From Minutocellus sp. GHC0000111 (Eukaryota), in assembly GCA_977018835.1 (NCBI GenBank), contig OZ361257.1, forward strand, positions 868,001 to 932,000: a DNA stretch of 64,000 nucleotides, written 5' to 3'. Below the pieces are notes generated by a model, which saw only the letters and a program-made list of their open reading frames with translations, was not told the DNA's origin and did not search any database. The position numbers and the translations under genes are program-made. Numbering within the stretch: the stretch's first letter is position 1; each line of letters begins with the position of its first letter. This document shows, piece after piece, positions 17,548 through 23,812 of this stretch.

Positions 17548-19128
17548 ATGGCACTCAGAGTGGAAGAATCCCGTCAAAACAGGCTTCGTCATCGACGCGC
17601 TTTGCTTCGTATCTTGCGTGATTCGGGTGATTCGTCAACACATGCTTATCGCCACGTTTCAGATGCTACAATTTGGGACGACGTTGTTCGATTGGCAGCA
17701 GCCGCATTGCATGATGACGCAGCCGCCGCTCCAGACGCTGTAGCAGGAGCAGGCAATGAGGCAACAAAATGCTCCAGTGATCTCTACAGTTGGGCCCGCG
17801 ACAAGGCTCGGCAGATTGGATTCAGCGGATATCTCACTTTGGCCGAGATTGATGTACCATTCCTACTTTACGTTTACAAGCATTACATTGATGATGGCCG
17901 CAATGGTGGAGAAGATGAATACTTTGGTACCATGGGACAATATACCGATAAATTGCTACAGCGGCACGAGCAAAGTTCGCAATTTTGGCAACGGGTAGAT
18001 GCAATGAGTGGCAAAGTCTTGGATCGCAAGGCTGCACAAAACAAGGTCATTCTGCTAGGGATGCACGGAAATGATTTTGTCTCAAGGTCAAACCTCTTCG
18101 AGACTTTATCATTTCTGTATCCTGGACGATTAAGGAAAGATATCAAAGCCGAAGCCAAGGCGATACAAGCATTGATTGAGCAAATTCCCGATGCATACGA
18201 CAATCCTATTCTCTCTCTTAATGCCCTTGCAGTCACTGCAGACTGGGTCAGTGGCCGAGATGCACCAGATGCCCTGTTGATTGGAGATGGCTTGCTGCAG
18301 TTTTTGCACGATAGAGGGCTGGGAGATGATGGTCCAGATTTCATTCATAGCCATGAGTGGGGTCATCATCTGCAATTCGATTATCATGATGCCAGTATTG
18401 AAGCTCTGCTTTTCAACAAGAAACTGAGCGAGGGGGAAGCAACTAGGCGTGGGGAGATGATGGCCGATGCGTTTGGTGCTTACTTTCTTGCACATCCTGA
18501 CGGTGGTAATTTTGATGAGGGCAAAGTGAGACTGCTCAATGACATTGCATTTTCAATCGGAGATTGCAGAATAGAGAAGGATGCGCATCACGGCACACCT
18601 CCACAAAGAGAGTGTGCTGCAGCCTTTGGTACTAAGCTTGCTTTGGGACTTGTTGAGGGAGAAAGCGCTTTGATCCATCCCGAACGTTTTCGTGAATTAT
18701 TTGACAGTGTACTACCTGACATGTTGCAACTCAATAGCGAGATTTGTAGCTTAGCCTTGGATTCTTCAGATGAAGACGTGGGAGGAATAGCAGCAATGGA
18801 TACAACTATTGGTGCCAAGGGAACTTCTGATGTGTGGAAAGAGGAGGACAGCATGACCACCACACGACCAACACTTTCGCCGACAAAACTTTCCTTGCCC
18901 TCAAAATCCAAGGCAACGAATTCATCGGTGGGGAGGCAGATGAGGGAACGCCCAATGAAAAACGACTTCGAGCTGATGGGAAGACCCGTGGTGAATGATC
19001 CCAACCCTTTCTACGCCGATGATACCTTTATTCTCGCCGACGCGATATCAGCCGCCCACATTACCATGTCAGTTCATCCAGGTACGATGGTCACTACGGT
19101 TCTAATGATTCTCGTGGTTCTTATTTGA
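17548..19128 (+). CDS. Putative neutral zinc metallopeptidase (HEXXH) with hydrophobic C-terminus; the true 5' end may lie upstream (ORF 16891-17277)
   Basis: LNAL, HEWGHHLQ, EMMADAFGAY and HGTPPQR resemble the YpfJ-like Zn peptidase motif order. C-terminal hydrophobic tail. Confidence 0.7.
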   Translation: MALRVEESRQNRLRHRRALLRILRDSGDSSTHAYRHVSDATIWDDVVRLAAAALHDDAAAAPDAVAGAGNEATKCSSDLYSWARDKARQIGFSGYLTLAEIDVPFLLYVYKHYIDDGRNGGEDEYFGTMGQYTDKLLQRHEQSSQFWQRVDAMSGKVLDRKAAQNKVILLGMHGNDFVSRSNLFETLSFLYPGRLRKDIKAEAKAIQALIEQIPDAYDNPILSLNALAVTADWVSGRDAPDALLIGDGLLQFLHDRGLGDDGPDFIHSHEWGHHLQFDYHDASIEALLFNKKLSEGEATRRGEMMADAFGAYFLAHPDGGNFDEGKVRLLNDIAFSIGDCRIEKDAHHGTPPQRECAAAFGTKLALGLVEGESALIHPERFRELFDSVLPDMLQLNSEICSLALDSSDEDVGGIAAMDTTIGAKGTSDVWKEEDSMTTTRPTLSPTKLSLPSKSKATNSSVGRQMRERPMKNDFELMGRPVVNDPNPFYADDTFILADAISAAHITMSVHPGTMVTTVLMILVVLI

Positions 19129-19178
19129 GCATGTAAATGATTGTAGCTACGTAGTATTTTCACATGATGGCATTTTAA

Positions 19179-20315
19179 TTATTCATCTTCTTTTGGCAGG
19201 CAATTCTCCAATACAACCTTCTTCATCACGTCGTATGGAGCATCCTGGTCCAGCCACAATTCAAATTGTCCAACGCCCTGTTCCCAAAGCATTTCTGATC
19301 CACGGACTACGTCAAGTCCAGCAGCCTCTGCCTGTCGAAGAAGAGGCGTCCAGTAAGGTTTATAATTCACATCGAAGACAACAGTGGACTTGTCCGCGGC
19401 CAACCACTCGGGCAGCTCGAACCCAGCAGCGGCCGGCAACGTCGACAGGACGACTCGTACCTTCAAATCCTTCTCCTTGCATACATCTCCCAAGGTCTTG
19501 TCATCGCCGCCGTCCGAAGGTCCTGATAGATCGCCAACGACCGTACCGCCAAATGCGTCGGCAAGCTCCTGCGCCTTGCTGGGGGTGCGGTTGTAATAAA
19601 TCCTCTCCAGACCCAGCTGCGTCGCGGCGTATGCTGCTGCCCGGGCAGTACCGCCAGCACCAAGAATAAGAGCGGCACCGCCCTTGTTGGCCGATGCGTC
19701 CCCAAGACGAGCCTTGAGCGGATTGTAAATGCCAATCCAATCTGTGTTGTCGCCCCTCAAAGTTCTACCCTCCCCCGATGCCTTCTTATCGACGATGACG
19801 GTGTTGACCGCACCAATCCGTTCGGCGGCGTCACTCAGCTCATCCAAATGGGGCATAATGGCCTGCTTGTGTGGGATGGTAACGCTCATACCGCGAAAGG
19901 CCGGATCAACCCAAAAGTCTGACGCCACAATGGTATCGACATTCTCTTCATCGATCAGACCGTAAGTGTGAGGGAGTCCCAGCTCGGCATAGGCAGCATT
20001 GTGCATTGCAGGGCTGACAGAGTAAGCAATATTGTGCCCGATAATGGCAAACTTTTGAGCCGTTGCAGCGCCAGAGTCTCCGTCAGAATCATCGGCGGTC
20101 ATGCAGGTATTGGTGGTGGATGCCTTGCTTGCTCTGCCACTGGCGGTTGCAGCGGCGGCGCCGACACGCCTTGACAATTGAAAGGCCGGGAGGATACCAC
20201 CAACATGGCGTGCTGGTCTGCTTGAATACGCTGCAACTCCGACGTATTGCGTCGCGGCAGACAACAGCAGTAGAGAGGAGCAGAGAGCGGCGGCGGGAGA
20301 GGAGGACAGTTTCAT
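19179..20315 (-). CDS. aroE: Shikimate dehydrogenase (stand-alone AroE type) with bipartite presequence
   Basis: [48 protein letters not shown] and MLWEQG. Signal peptide ends VAA-YS. Confidence 0.93.
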
Positions 20316-20737
20316 GGTGGTGGTTGCTTTATGACTGACGTGATCGTAAACTCGCTTCCCGCAAACCGCCACAAGCAATAAGAATGCGCGAAGCACCCTG
20401 CGAGCCTGCACCGCCGGCAAGTAGCACAAGATTCCCACCCCGCTCAAAGCAAATTCTGCCGACCAACGCAGAACTGCTCATTCAAACCTTATTATGCCTG
20501 TGTGCTGCCGAGTGACGCGGATTCCAGTGACATTTTTGCATTTCCTACCGCGAAGTTAGCAGAGAACATGTTCTTTGGTTCTGACTCGAGCCGGCCGCAA
20601 AAGTGGCGCCAGCGCAGATTTTCCACCATGCCGATGCCACGAAGATGCTTGCATCGGTGTGGGCACTTCACGCCCTCAGATCTTTCTCACAATCAAAACA
20701 ACCACATCAGCAACTGACTCAACCAATCAAGATCAGA

Positions 20738-22267
20738 ATGAAGTTCTCCCTTTCTATCATCGTAACGCTTCTCGCGTCGCAGACCGAAGCTTTCAGCACC
20801 ATCCCTCGCGCCTCTGCCTCGTTCAAGAATGGCCAGCGCACTTCTTCCTACGGCGCTGCTTCTTCTTCCGCCATTGCCTTCGCTCCCAAGGCCGATGTTA
20901 CTGAGCCCGCCACGCTTGACTTCGCCACGGAACTCGGCGCTGCCACTCTTGGATCCGACCTAATCCAGCAAAAGAACAAGGCCGATGACAAAGCCCCCGC
21001 CGTCGTGTGGGAACGATTCTCCAACTGGATTACCTCTACCGAGAATCGTCTCTACATTGGCTGGTTCGGTACCATCATGTTCCCCACGCTTCTTGCGGCA
21101 ACTACCTGCTTCATCACCGCCTTTCTCGCTGCACCTCCCGTCGATATCGATGGGATCCGTGAACCCGTCGCTGGATCTCTTCTCTACGGAAACAACATCA
21201 TTTCGGGAGCGGTGGTTCCTTCGTCGAATGCCATTGGCATGCATTTTTACCCGATCTGGGAAGCCGCCTCGATGGATGAGTCGCTCTACAACGGGTAAGT
21301 TGCATCTTTCTTCATGGTTCCCGTCGGTATTACAATCTGACCTTTATGAATATTCGACACTTATGGAATCTTTCTTTCTTTCTTCGTTAACACGTGTACA
21401 CCTCTCGTATGTGTAAGTGGCGAGTATCAGCTCATTGTCCTTCACTTCCTCCTCGGCGTCATGTCGTACATGGGACGTGAGTGGGAACTTTCCTACCGTC
21501 TTGGAATGAGGCCCTGGATCTTCCTCGCCTTCTCGGCCCCAGTTGCTACTGCTTCCTCACTTATCCCATCGGCCAGGGATCATTCTCCGACGGCATGCCG
21601 CTTGGAATCTCTGGGACGTTCAACTTCATGCTTGTCTTCCAGGCCGAGCACAACATTCACTTATCCCATCGGCCAGGGATCATTCTCCGACGGCATGCCG
21701 CTTGGAATCTCTGGGACGTTCAACTTCATGCTTGTCTTCCAGGCCGAGCACAACATTCTGATGCATCCCTTCCACATGCTCGGGGTTGCCGGTGTCTTTG
21801 GTGGGGCCCTCTTCTCTGCCATGCATGGCTCGCTCGTCACCTCTTCTCTCATCCGCGAGACCACCGAGAATGAGTCCACAAATGCTGGCTACAAATTCGG
21901 ACAAGAGGAGGAAACGTACAATATCGTCGCCGCACACGGTTACTTTGGTCGTCTTATCTTCCAGTATGCCTCGTTCAACAACTCCCGTGCTCTTCATTTC
22001 TTCCTTGCTGCCTGGCCTGTGATTGGAATCTGGCTCACAGCCATGGGCGTTTCTACTATGGCATTCAACCTCAATGGATTCAATTTCAACCAGTCCGTCG
22101 TGGACTCCCAGGGCCGTGTCATCAATACCTGGGCAGACATCATCAACCGCGCCGATCTTGGTATGGAGATGATGCACGAGCGCAATGCCCACAATTTCCC
22201 CCTCGATTTGGCCAACGACGGCGACATTATTCCTGTTGCCATGGAGGCCCCCTCTGTCAACGCCTAA
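20738..22267 (+). CDS. psbA: Nucleus-encoded photosystem II D1 protein with bipartite plastid-targeting presequence; exons 20738-21294 and 21418-22267; helix C region disrupted (possible pseudogene copy)
   Basis: Unmistakable D1 sequence from [20 protein letters not shown] to [13 protein letters not shown] plus a C-terminal extension. N-terminus [23 protein letters not shown]. The GTAAGT...AG intron 21295-21417 restores [13 protein letters not shown]. Confidence 0.93.
21557..21758 (+). repeat. Perfect 100-bp tandem duplication inside psbA exon 2
   Basis: TCACTTATCCCATCGG...GAGCACAACATTC occurs twice with a period of 100 nt. Confidence 0.95.
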
Positions 22268-22621
22268 CCACTTCCTTGAACAATCATTCTTCCCGTTGAA
22301 ATGGAAAATCTTCCTTTTTCAACGCCTAATTGCATTGGATACATTTAGCAACATATGCCCAATGGAAATCCGTAGCATCCACCCTCAATATCTTTGAACA
22401 TACATATCCTAAGAACCAATTTTGCATGAGGTTGGGTCCTACTTAATCCTGCCGCTGTCAGAAGTCCTATCTGGAATACAGTTGCTTGGCGAAGTTTTTT
22501 TCATTCAAGCCATTTTTTATCTACATGAATAAATACATACTTAGATGCACATAATCACAAAACTCTTCGCGATACATTAGCTCATCTGCTGACGTACAAT
22601 GCAAGTCCTTGCGGGCTCTAC

Positions 22622-23812
22622 TTACTTGAACTCAACAATCTCCTCCAGAACTCGCAGCTGCTGGTCCTTGTCCATATCAATAATGTCCCACTCAAAGTCC
22701 GCAACGATCCAAAGTTCGAGCATCATGTTCCAGAAGCAGGACCATGCAGTGTTGCACTTGCAGCCGTCCTTGCGAGATGGCGGGGAAAAGAACTCCCATG
22801 AACCGTCGTCGTCTCCGCCACCGTTCGCAACGCATCCAATCTTCTCGACACTGAGCATGGTCGATATGGTATCCGAAGTGCCCAACCCATCGAGCTTGTA
22901 CGCATCTGCTATCCGTCCAAATCCAAAGAACCAGAGATTGGAATCCCACCATTGCTCCATACCATGGTTGTGAACGATGGCCTGCCGTCCGGTGGACTTG
23001 TCGTAGATGGTAATGCGAACGTCGAACGTTGTGAAGTCATTATGATACTGGGCCATCTCCTCTCCCAGCTGGTCCATCTTGAGCGAGATACGATTGTTGC
23101 CGTTGAAGGTGCAATCGGCAAACACCCTTGTAACGACGCCAACCTGCTCTCCCTTCCCGGTCTGGCCCTTGCGTTCCTGATACAGTACTAGGTCCACCTG
23201 TAACAGATACGAGGAGAGTGGATTCGGAGGTGGCTTCTCGGCAACCATGGCCTGCGCAGCTGCGCCAGCATCATCGTCTGATTTGGTCAGCAGGACATGA
23301 CGCTGGAACTGACCACGCCAGCTCAGAGATGGGGCGGGAATGGTGGTAGTGGTAGTGGTGCTGGTGCTGGTGCTGGTGCTGGTACCACTTTCGGGTGATG
23401 ACAGCTGTAGCATCTTGGTCACCTCCTCGACCGACGGACAGTGCTTCCGTATCAGACCCAACCACAGCTCATCCTCCACCTTCTTCATGGCGGCGTACCA
23501 ATCCTTGCAGATGGCGGATGCCGATGGCACGTCACCCACGTCCAGATAGAGGAAGGAGGCCGAGACGGCATCGATGGGGAGGCGCATGGCTTGGGTACGC
23601 CGGTTGTCAACAGAAGATGTTGGTGGGTGCCCTGTTGCTCTGTGCGAGCATTTGGTGGTGGAGGCTACGGCTGGCGTGACGGGTAGATGGTGAGCATGCC
23701 GCTGCCTCTTGGCCGGTGAGGCGATTGGAGGAGAGGACTGAGCCGCCTTTGGATCCGATCGGTGGCGACGGCGGACGCCAATCGATGGCGACAGGGGCTT
23801 CGTCGTCATCAT
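22622..23812 (-). CDS. F-box-like domain protein
   Basis: LPIDAVSASFLYLDVGDVPSASAICKDW......DELW matches the F-box pattern. Confidence 0.7.
   Translation of the reverse strand: MMTTKPLSPSIGVRRRHRSDPKAAQSSPPIASPAKRQRHAHHLPVTPAVASTTKCSHRATGHPPTSSVDNRRTQAMRLPIDAVSASFLYLDVGDVPSASAICKDWYAAMKKVEDELWLGLIRKHCPSVEEVTKMLQLSSPESGTSTSTSTSTTTTTTIPAPSLSWRGQFQRHVLLTKSDDDAGAAAQAMVAEKPPPNPLSSYLLQVDLVLYQERKGQTGKGEQVGVVTRVFADCTFNGNNRISLKMDQLGEEMAQYHNDFTTFDVRITIYDKSTGRQAIVHNHGMEQWWDSNLWFFGFGRIADAYKLDGLGTSDTISTMLSVEKIGCVANGGGDDDGSWEFFSPPSRKDGCKCNTAWSCFWNMMLELWIVADFEWDIIDMDKDQQLRVLEEIVEFK

What the first reader, a model, noticed from the sequence alone, without database searches (positions are those of the whole stretch)
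20738..22267. Nucleus-encoded, plastid-targeted, intron-containing psbA (photosystem II D1)
Seen in sequence: a full-length D1 coding region sits between ordinary nuclear genes. It has ~77 extra N-terminal residues forming a signal peptide, a TEA-F cleavage site (ASAFAP type) and a Ser/Ala/Arg-rich transit peptide. A 123-nt GTAAGT...AG intron splits the Gly109 codon, and codons are C/G-ending like the neighbouring nuclear genes. No other plastid DNA flanks it. Established: psbA is among the genes most strictly retained in plastids, and D1 is normally inserted co-translationally during the repair cycle. I know of nuclear D1 only from engineered constructs. Inference: this is an old, domesticated gene transfer giving a second, cytosolically translated D1 supply imported across four membranes. 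Heavy synonymous recoding with conserved protein implies long purifying selection.
Basis: partly seen in the sequence, partly recalled or inferred. Interest (0 to 1): 0.97.

Follow-up and report, generated by a model that had tools for sequence, protein, structure and literature searches.

The report
Nuclear photosystem II D1 in diatoms
Many diatoms carry in their nuclear DNA an intron-containing, strongly conserved second copy of the chloroplast gene for the photosystem II core protein D1, with a leader predicted to import it into the chloroplast, something found in the papers searched only as an engineered construct; the copy in this window is damaged and likely no longer works.

Summary
The nuclear psbA is real, but this copy is not intact. 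Confirmed: a 77-residue leader, a 123-nt GT-AG intron, nuclear codon use (GC3s 0.64 against 0.27-0.31 in plastid psbA) and linkage to nuclear genes in independent contigs. Three public runs hold two haplotypes at the lesion, and both look disrupted.

The larger result is the family. Ninety fetched proteins share a nuclear signature, among them records from Nitzschia, Pseudo-nitzschia, Seminavis, Amphora and Epithemia (six copies). They form one clade (100/94), keep the manganese, tyrosine-Z, chlorophyll and quinone ligands, show dN/dS 0.006-0.08, and conserve the import-type leader. Helices A and C are less hydrophobic than in plastid D1.

Best reading: one old plastid-to-nucleus transfer that supplies a second, imported D1 while the plastid gene stays. 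Import and assembly are untested. Ten literature searches found only engineered nuclear D1, and the scan's earlier notes hold no such finding.

The parts
20738..20791 (+). Signal-peptide-like segment, 18 aa, ending in TEA
   Evidence: Sequence; same layout in 81 distinct leaders; SignalP not available
20792..20878 (+). Transit-peptide-like segment from Phe19 to the conserved [L]-x-F-x-P motif (Ile46 here, Leu in 69 of 81 leaders); predicted stromal processing site
   Evidence: motif compared with PMC3774753 passages
20879..21007 (+). Linker with second conserved motif L-x-A-A-T-L (residues 66-71), which resembles the native D1 start; alternative processing site
   Evidence: 72 of 81 leaders; processing is inferred
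21008..21294 (+). Exon 1, D1 Trp14-Gly109; codon 21281-21283 reads Ser for invariant Trp105
   Evidence: runs X1, X2 and X5 read the Trp codon
21295..21417 (+). 123-nt GT-AG intron, 38% GC, 2 nt upstream of the position in close relatives (Gly110 phase 1)
   Evidence: splicing not seen in reads
21418..22267 (+). Exon 2, D1 Gly109 to stop, with the Ala344 processing site and C-terminal extension; codon 22169-22171 reads Met for invariant Val330
   Evidence: X1 and X2 share Met, X5 and X15 read Val
21547..21556 (+). Site of a 10-nt loss relative to the intact relative L005, shifting the frame
   Evidence: a 76-nt contig of run X1 matches 21511-21586 exactly
21557..21756 (+). Exact 100-nt tandem duplication that restores the frame; net +30 residues inside membrane helix C
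   Evidence: copy number in reads unresolved
19179..20315 (-). Upstream neighbour, shikimate dehydrogenase gene, head-to-head with psbA (nuclear context)
   Evidence: same contig in X1 and X2
22622..23812 (-). Downstream neighbour, ORF of 396 aa without Pfam match (nuclear context)
   Evidence: joined to psbA 3' half in X1

Best explanation
This is a damaged, likely recently inactivated copy of a nuclear psbA family found in several diatom genera, whose intact members likely arose from one old plastid-to-nucleus transfer and are predicted to supply a second, imported D1 to photosystem II while the plastid keeps its own psbA. SHOWN: nuclear location, GT-AG introns fitted at about ten different positions, nuclear codon use, one clade, purifying selection, conserved cofactor ligands and leader, lower hydrophobicity of helices A and C, and the lesions of this copy. 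INFERRED mechanism for intact members: the signal peptide takes the chain into the plastid ER; the Phe after the cleavage site sorts it across the inner three membranes; the stromal peptidase removes the transit peptide at one of two conserved Leu motifs; the chain is inserted into the thylakoid after translation, trimmed after Ala344 and exchanged into photosystem II during repair. The polar substitutions Cys35Thr, Ile50Thr/Met/Ala and Val160Thr/Asn would help a five-helix protein pass the translocons. The benefit would be a D1 supply under nuclear control that does not depend on plastid translation, which is inhibited by light stress (recalled). This copy would not fold helix C, which positions Tyr161.
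For: Family: 42 of 43 hits to the N-terminal region are D1 with a leader. All 90 proteins with Thr/Ala35 plus Asn/Lys19 have at least 45 residues before Trp14, and 89 of them have a signal-like start, against 0 of 103 other D1 (the first searches used the leader as bait). A DNA pattern scan blind to the leader gave 23 of 23 loci of this family, 0 in viral contigs and 0 in prokaryote genomes. Large nuclear contigs: Nitzschia inconspicua 3.5 and 4.2 Mb, Epithemia clementina six genes on three contigs. Transcriptome-derived records from Nitzschia RCC80, Pseudo-nitzschia and Amphora. One clade: 100/94 on 26 of 60 rows, SH-aLRT 99 on 48 of 142 rows. dN/dS 0.006-0.081. Asp61, Tyr161, Asp170, His190, His198, His215, Ser264, His272, His332, Glu333, Asp342 and Ala344 are kept in 48 of 48 nuclear sequences, Glu189 in 47 of 48. 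Leader: first aromatic residue is Phe in 81 of 81, transit length median 21 with positive net charge in 74 of 74, followed by a net-negative stretch in 60 of 74, matching PMC3774753 and PMC4329603. Plastid copy kept: psbA in all diatom plastomes surveyed (PMC12412971); X1 and X2 hold a high-depth plastid-type psbA contig. Damage; two haplotypes at 53-60% and 40-47% of depth in X1, X2 and X5.
Against: SignalP and ASAFind could not be run. No spliced junction was seen for this gene. The window branch shows 14 synonymous and 3 non-synonymous changes, so any loss of function is recent, and Trp105Ser is not in the three DNA-type runs and may be an error of this assembly. The reading of the second haplotype as +1 nt rests on one contig length (140 against 139 nt). 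The hydrophobicity drop is small, is absent in helices D and E, and is one evolutionary event. The tree does not resolve which plastid lineage was the donor, and the bootstrap had not fully settled. In the one RNA run laid, pieces on this gene have depth about 5, like the neighbouring genes, against thousands for plastid-type psbA; this cannot rank expression, but it gives no sign of a strong transcript.
Confidence: 0.7

Rival explanations
1. The family is imported but is a condition-specific isoform or helper rather than a plain second supply: a D1 used only in darkness, low oxygen or light shock, or a placeholder in assembly and repair. The fast-evolving subclade B would be the most specialised form.
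For: Fixed differences from plastid D1 in 44 of 44 (Cys35Thr, residue 19, Ile50, Val160). Subclade B has a 0.27 branch and about 30 own changes, such as Tyr262Phe, Met328Thr, Gly289Leu and Thr292Met. Amphora holds both types, and Seminavis has two nuclear D1 gene models. Cyanobacteria use D1 isoforms in this way (recalled).
Against: All manganese and quinone ligands are kept in both subclades, and Glu130 and Asn87 equal the plastid state, unlike rogue D1 or chlorophyll f synthase (recalled). No expression data were obtained.
Confidence: 0.17
2. This very locus is intact and functional; the deletion and duplication are faults of this assembly.
For: An exact 100-nt duplication looks like an assembly fault. 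Trp105Ser is contradicted by X1, X2 and X5. The duplication junction is not among the rows that one search lists (48 pieces not shown). Close relatives with the same shifted intron acceptor have an intact helix C (P0096, P0283).
Against: A 76-nt contig identical to the deletion junction exists in X1 at depth 41.5, and depth arithmetic gives the same haplotype in X2 and X5. The repeat unit has depth 120 in X1, two to three times that haplotype. The other haplotype is 1 nt longer than the intact gene. X1 and X2 also carry Val330Met.
Confidence: 0.07
3. The protein never reaches the thylakoid: it stops in the plastid ER or periplastid space, and selection acts on some other role there.
For: D1 has five membrane helices, and a signal peptide followed by a hydrophobic helix normally leads to ER membrane insertion (established knowledge). 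No import test exists.
Against: Phe follows the signal peptide in 81 of 81 leaders, the residue reported as needed to cross the inner membranes. Selection keeps lumenal manganese ligands and the Ala344 site, which matter only in photosystem II.
Confidence: 0.05
4. Neutral plastid DNA in the nucleus (a NUPT), or a chimeric or contaminant contig.
For: The window copy is broken, and L013 is another degraded copy.
Against: Saturated synonymous recoding with 92-94% protein identity, introns, a conserved leader, dN/dS far below 1, linkage to nuclear genes in independent contigs and no other plastid gene nearby.
Confidence: 0.01

Closest known systems
Engineered nuclear psbA with an RbcS transit peptide in rice, Arabidopsis and tobacco (PMC10458752 and PMC11355022, passages read)
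   Same: D1 made from a nuclear gene with an N-terminal plastid leader, in addition to the plastid gene; reported to raise D1 level and photosynthetic efficiency, so import of D1 is feasible.
   Different: Those are transgenes crossing two membranes. This is a natural family with introns, recoded codons, a bipartite leader for a four-membrane plastid and a changed protein sequence.
Plastid-to-nucleus transfer of petF in Thalassiosira oceanica (cited in PMC9408514, passage read)
   Same: Endosymbiotic gene transfer within diatoms of a gene that is normally plastid-encoded.
   Different: Ferredoxin is small and soluble (recalled). D1 is the five-helix reaction-centre core, kept in all diatom plastomes surveyed and among the 14 genes left in Symbiodinium minicircles (PMC4079212). 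Here the plastid copy is apparently kept as well.
Diatom plastid-encoded D1 (best solved-structure matches 6jlu, 8iwh, 6j3y; their diatom origin is recalled)
   Same: 92-94% identity to diatom-like plastid psbA products; all cofactor ligands conserved in intact members.
   Different: Nuclear, with leader and introns; fixed polar changes in helices A and C; this copy has helix C interrupted.
Cyanobacterial psbA multigene families with condition-specific D1 isoforms (recalled, not tested)
   Same: Several D1 genes per cell, some divergent (six copies in Epithemia clementina; subclade B).
   Different: Here the extra genes lie in another genome compartment, and none lacks the manganese ligands as rogue D1 or chlorophyll f synthase do.

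Membership tests
PsbA/D1 (Pfam PF00124) | Profile match and closest relatives are D1 | tested here: met
   PF00124 on both exons; best PDB chains are all D1
PsbA/D1, oxygen-evolving type | Mn-cluster, Tyr-Z, P680, iron and QB ligands present (numbering recalled) | tested here: met
   48 of 48 nuclear sequences, Glu189 47 of 48; present in the window translation
PsbA/D1, oxygen-evolving type | Five uninterrupted membrane helices | tested here: not met
   Window copy: 38 residues replace Ala152-Leu159 in helix C. Met in intact relatives such as L005 and P0001
Bipartite (ASAFAP-type) plastid-targeted proteins | Hydrophobic signal peptide followed by Phe at +1 | tested here: met
   TEA|F in the window; first aromatic at positions 16-28 is Phe in 81 of 81 leaders; by pattern, not SignalP
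Bipartite (ASAFAP-type) plastid-targeted proteins | Transit peptide rich in Ser/Thr, net positive, ending at a Leu(-2) motif | tested here: met
   against PMC3774753 passages; the window has Ile at the first motif, and Phe at +1 of that motif is atypical
Bipartite (ASAFAP-type) plastid-targeted proteins | Delivers a protein into the plastid in vivo | not testable with these tools
   needs a GFP fusion or proteomics
Functional endosymbiotic gene transfer (as against NUPT) | Nuclear location, nuclear gene structure and codon use | tested here: met
Functional endosymbiotic gene transfer (as against NUPT) | Purifying selection after transfer | tested here: met
   dN/dS 0.006-0.081 in 46 of 55 pairs, 9 saturated
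Functional endosymbiotic gene transfer (as against NUPT) | Spliced transcript of this locus | tested here: inconclusive
   no RNA cover at the intron; uninterrupted 439-aa record P0001 on a 1,558-nt contig beside intron-bearing P0044 suggests splicing in a close relative; family records from transcriptome sets
Functional endosymbiotic gene transfer (as against NUPT) | Protein product assembled at its site of action | not testable with these tools
   no proteomic data
Atypical D1 (rogue D1, chlorophyll f synthase; features recalled) | Loss of manganese-cluster ligands | tested here: not met
   ligands kept in subclades A (44) and B (4)

The most novel reading that the evidence does not exclude
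A large group of diatoms, all named members being raphid pennates, has naturally done what plant engineers did on purpose: they make photosystem II D1 in the cytosol from nuclear genes, thread this five-helix protein through four membranes and build it into working photosystem II beside the plastid-made D1. They have expanded the gene (six copies in Epithemia clementina) and split off a divergent second isoform. This would be the first natural nucleus-encoded reaction-centre core subunit and a direct counter-example to the idea that psbA cannot leave the plastid.
Probability: 0.6. Interest if true: 0.93.

Novelty: new variant of a known kind. Interest (0 to 1): 0.82.

Why it matters
psbA is the textbook case of a gene that stays in the plastid, even in dinoflagellates that kept only 14 genes. 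A natural, selected, nuclear D1 family makes the hydrophobicity and local-redox-control explanations of organelle gene retention testable in culturable, sequenced diatoms. It shows which substitutions evolution chose for an importable D1, which is useful for engineering nuclear D1 in crops. It may also bear on how diatoms of shifting-light habitats repair photosystem II. In practice, psbA reads or anti-D1 signals in these diatoms may mix two genes. The window copy itself is mainly a pointer to the family and an example of its recent decay.

Tried and rejected
No whole genome is held for this window, so other copies and the plastid genome of this organism could not be searched. A donor for the leader was sought with a 13-sequence profile against 1.84 billion representatives: 14 of 16 hits were D1 leaders and 2 were weak repeat proteins, so none was found. 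A single-sequence AlphaFold2 model of exon 2 was uninformative (pLDDT 37) and was not used. No gene neighbours are shared between the window and the 23 loci (the first try was noise from sum statistics). L024, fetched as a plastid control, is a chimeric-looking psbA and was dropped in favour of L025-L033. RNA run X15 covers parts of the gene at the same depth as its neighbours, which is not evidence of transcription. Gene models for L004, L008, L010, L013, L016 and L022 were partial or unresolved, and duplicates were removed, so 10 of 23 loci entered the dN/dS table. My first reading 'frameshifted pseudogene' was corrected: the frame is restored by the duplication. A regex slip was fixed. The +1 count used a faulty pattern and was redone. 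The scan's earlier notes held nothing on nuclear psbA. Considered and left as unsupported: that the lesions come from a nuclease cut at this site.

Full report
1. OBSERVATION. The gene starts at ATG 20738. Trp91 corresponds to D1 Trp14, so the leader is 77 residues. A 123-nt intron (21295-21417, GTAAGT...AAG, 38% GC) splits Gly109, and the spliced frame runs to TAA 22267. Both exons match PF00124; Pfam matches among 20 other long ORFs of the window are ordinary families (proteasome, Myb/R3H, ArfGAP, shikimate dehydrogenase and others) with no photosynthesis gene. GC3s is 0.64, within the 0.41-0.65 of four neighbours and far from 0.27-0.31 in 8 diatom-like plastid psbA genes. Independent short-read contigs link the gene to both neighbours: 19000-21540 in X1 and X2 with 1 mismatch, and 21729-23333 in X1. 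X1 and X2 also hold a separate plastid-type psbA contig at several times the depth. One window protein is on record on a 3.03-Mb contig. D1 numbering and helix limits used here are recalled.

2. THIS COPY IS DAMAGED. Against the intact relative L005 (same intron site within 2 nt; 32 synonymous and 2 non-synonymous differences in the mature part), the window lacks 10 nt near 21547-21556 and has an exact 100-nt tandem duplication. The frame is restored, but 38 residues replace Ala152-Leu159 of helix C just before Tyr161. Trp105Ser and Val330Met hit positions invariant in 75 of 75 sequences. In one search (4 of 24 listed runs laid, all as contigs), X1, X2 and X5 read Trp at 105, so that change is private to this assembly; X1 and X2 share Met330, while X5 and X15 read Val. 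At 21511 the flank splits into two contigs whose depths add up to about the flank depth. One matches the window's deletion (listed for X1, deduced from depths for X2 and X5; 40-47%). The other is a 140-nt contig (53-60%) that spans an interval of 139 nt in L005, so it appears to carry one extra base. Both haplotypes in these three runs (two studies) thus look disrupted. The duplication junction is not among the rows listed, and the repeat's depth (120 in X1) leaves two or three copies open. The window branch has 14 synonymous and 3 non-synonymous changes, and close relatives with the same intron acceptor have an intact helix C (P0096, P0283), so the damage is recent. No RNA contig covered the intron.

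3. THE FAMILY. The N-terminal 110 residues found 43 proteins, 42 of them D1 with a similar leader; two more searches widened the set. Named members come from Nitzschia inconspicua (two genes, 3.5 and 4.2 Mb contigs), Nitzschia sp. RCC80, Pseudo-nitzschia, Seminavis robusta, Amphora coffeaeformis, Epithemia clementina (six genes on three contigs) and a Bacillariaceae MAG. All are raphid pennates (classification recalled); several records derive from transcriptome sets. No centric diatom or Phaeodactylum record appeared, which is weak evidence of absence. Sorted by two D1 residues alone, 90 of 90 proteins have an extension of 45 or more residues and 89 have a signal-like start, against 0 of 103 other D1; the leader was the bait of two searches, so the forward count is biased. 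A DNA pattern blind to the leader gave 23 metagenome loci, about 14 distinct genes, all of this family, and none in viral contigs or prokaryote genomes. Fitted GT-AG introns lie at about ten positions in the ten usable models. Flanking ORFs include NMD3, Alg9-like and CXXC genes (8 of 20 ORFs matched Pfam), with no synteny to the window.

4. ORIGIN AND SELECTION. A quick tree of 142 D1 cores puts the nuclear sequences on one branch (SH-aLRT 99); its one 'plastid' row, P0043, is a nuclear member whose leader is out of frame. A careful tree of 60 of these rows gives 26 of 26 nuclear rows as one clade, 100/94, with the bootstrap not fully settled; its place among red-lineage plastid D1 is unresolved, and no AU test was run. 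A diatom plastid donor is inferred from 92-94% identity to 7 diatom-like plastid genes and from the best PDB matches. Synonymous sites are saturated against plastid psbA (pS 0.85-0.90). Among 11 nuclear genes, dN/dS is 0.006-0.081 in 46 of 55 pairs, 9 being saturated; the median is 0.043, against 0.088 among plastid genes. The leader is also constrained in close pairs (0.05-0.38). Manganese, Tyr-Z, chlorophyll, iron and QB ligands and Ala344 are kept in 48 of 48 (Glu189 in 47). Fixed changes are Cys35Thr, residue 19 to Asn/Lys, Ile50 to Thr/Met/Ala and Val160 to Thr/Asn. Mean hydropathy falls in helix A (1.70 to 1.56) and C (1.70 to 1.41), hardly in B, and not in D or E. A divergent subclade B (Amphora, an MMETSP record, L007; the Seminavis record shares its motifs) keeps the ligands but has about 30 own changes; its position inside the window's clade may be a long-branch effect.

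5. THE LEADER. In 81 distinct leaders the first aromatic residue at positions 16-28 is Phe in all, preceded by Ala in 79. The stretch up to a conserved [LMI]-x-F-x-P motif (74 of 81) has median length 21 and net charge +2, and a net-negative stretch follows in 60 of 74. A second motif like L-x-A-A-T-L occurs in 72 of 81. This fits the published rules: Phe at +1 needed for import, transit peptides of 12-42 residues, Leu at -2 of the stromal cut, acidic residues after it (PMC3774753 and PMC4329603, passages). No donor gene for the leader was found.

6. MECHANISM. Most likely (0.7): intact members are translated in the cytosol, enter the plastid ER by the signal peptide, cross the inner membranes by the Phe-led transit peptide, are processed in the stroma, inserted into thylakoids after translation and trimmed at Ala344, giving a nucleus-controlled D1 supply for repair; this copy is a recent casualty. 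Location, structure, selection and lesions are shown; every step from import onward is inferred. Rivals: special isoform or helper (0.17), intact locus mis-assembled (0.07), protein that stops outside the thylakoid (0.05), NUPT or chimera (0.01).

7. LITERATURE. Ten full-text searches found no report of a natural nuclear psbA; most hits were seen as listings only. Passages read: PMC10458752 and PMC11355022 (engineered nuclear D1); PMC12412971 (psbA in all diatom plastomes); PMC4079212 (psbA among 14 minicircle genes); PMC9408514 (petF transfer); PMC11014865, PMC12949581 and 10.64898/2026.05.20.726455 (nothing relevant). Term look-ups in genome papers: N. inconspicua PMC8329260 has no 'psbA' in the main text or in 3 supplementary files. 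Seminavis PMC7335047 has none in the main text, but a supplementary table (file cut when stored) lists Sro1187_g250510 as 'Photosystem II protein D1', pan-gene category Core. The Seminavis diel preprint has none. The Epithemia preprint reports no NUPTs in E. clementina and mentions PsbA only as an antibody. Preprint supplements could not be seen and subscription journals are not covered, so a prior report is possible. The genes are annotated as D1 in public databases without comment on their location.

8. VERDICT. Observation partly confirmed; interpretation partly supported. The process (endosymbiotic gene transfer with a retained plastid copy) is known; the cargo is not. Novelty: new variant of a known kind. 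Interest 0.82, carried by the family rather than by this damaged copy.

Noticed in passing
P0016, P0026, P0034, P0035, P0038, P0040; L007:3707-5242, L012: Fast-evolving second type of nuclear D1 (subclade B) with all Mn ligands but about 30 own substitutions, including Tyr262Phe, Met328Thr and Gly289Leu; Amphora has both types.
   Followed up: partly
P0018, P0021, P0023, P0027, P0029, P0031: Epithemia clementina has six nuclear D1 genes on three contigs, three with close locus numbers, annotated only as hypothetical proteins.
   Followed up: no
window 21292-21297 and 21412-21422; L005:617-725: The intron lies 2 nt upstream of its place in L005, P0044 and P0288 (Gly109 phase 2 against Gly110 phase 1) and ends in AAG; P0096 and P0283 appear to share this acceptor. 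A possible case of intron sliding.
   Followed up: partly
window 21511-21639: Two haplotypes with different lesions at the same spot occur together in three runs of two studies, although run X5 differs from the window at many silent sites nearby; unexplained.
   Followed up: partly
L013:516-1519: Another degraded nuclear psbA copy with several frame breaks and no intact leader.
   Followed up: no
L025-L031, L033: Diatom-like plastid psbA contigs (30-35% GC) sit inside bacterial and archaeal MAGs of the genome collection: binning contamination.
   Followed up: no
L024:1-1673: psbA on a viral contig whose first part looks like a eukaryotic algal plastid D1 and whose remainder looks cyanobacterial or cyanophage-like; possibly chimeric.
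   Followed up: no
window 20316-20737: psbA and a shikimate dehydrogenase gene with a long hydrophobic N-terminal extension are head-to-head, 422 nt apart, and may share a promoter region.
   Followed up: no
window 22524, 22874, 22904-22910: Runs X1, X2 and X5 share differences from the window downstream of psbA, so the window is another haplotype or strain than these runs, or has local errors.
   Followed up: no
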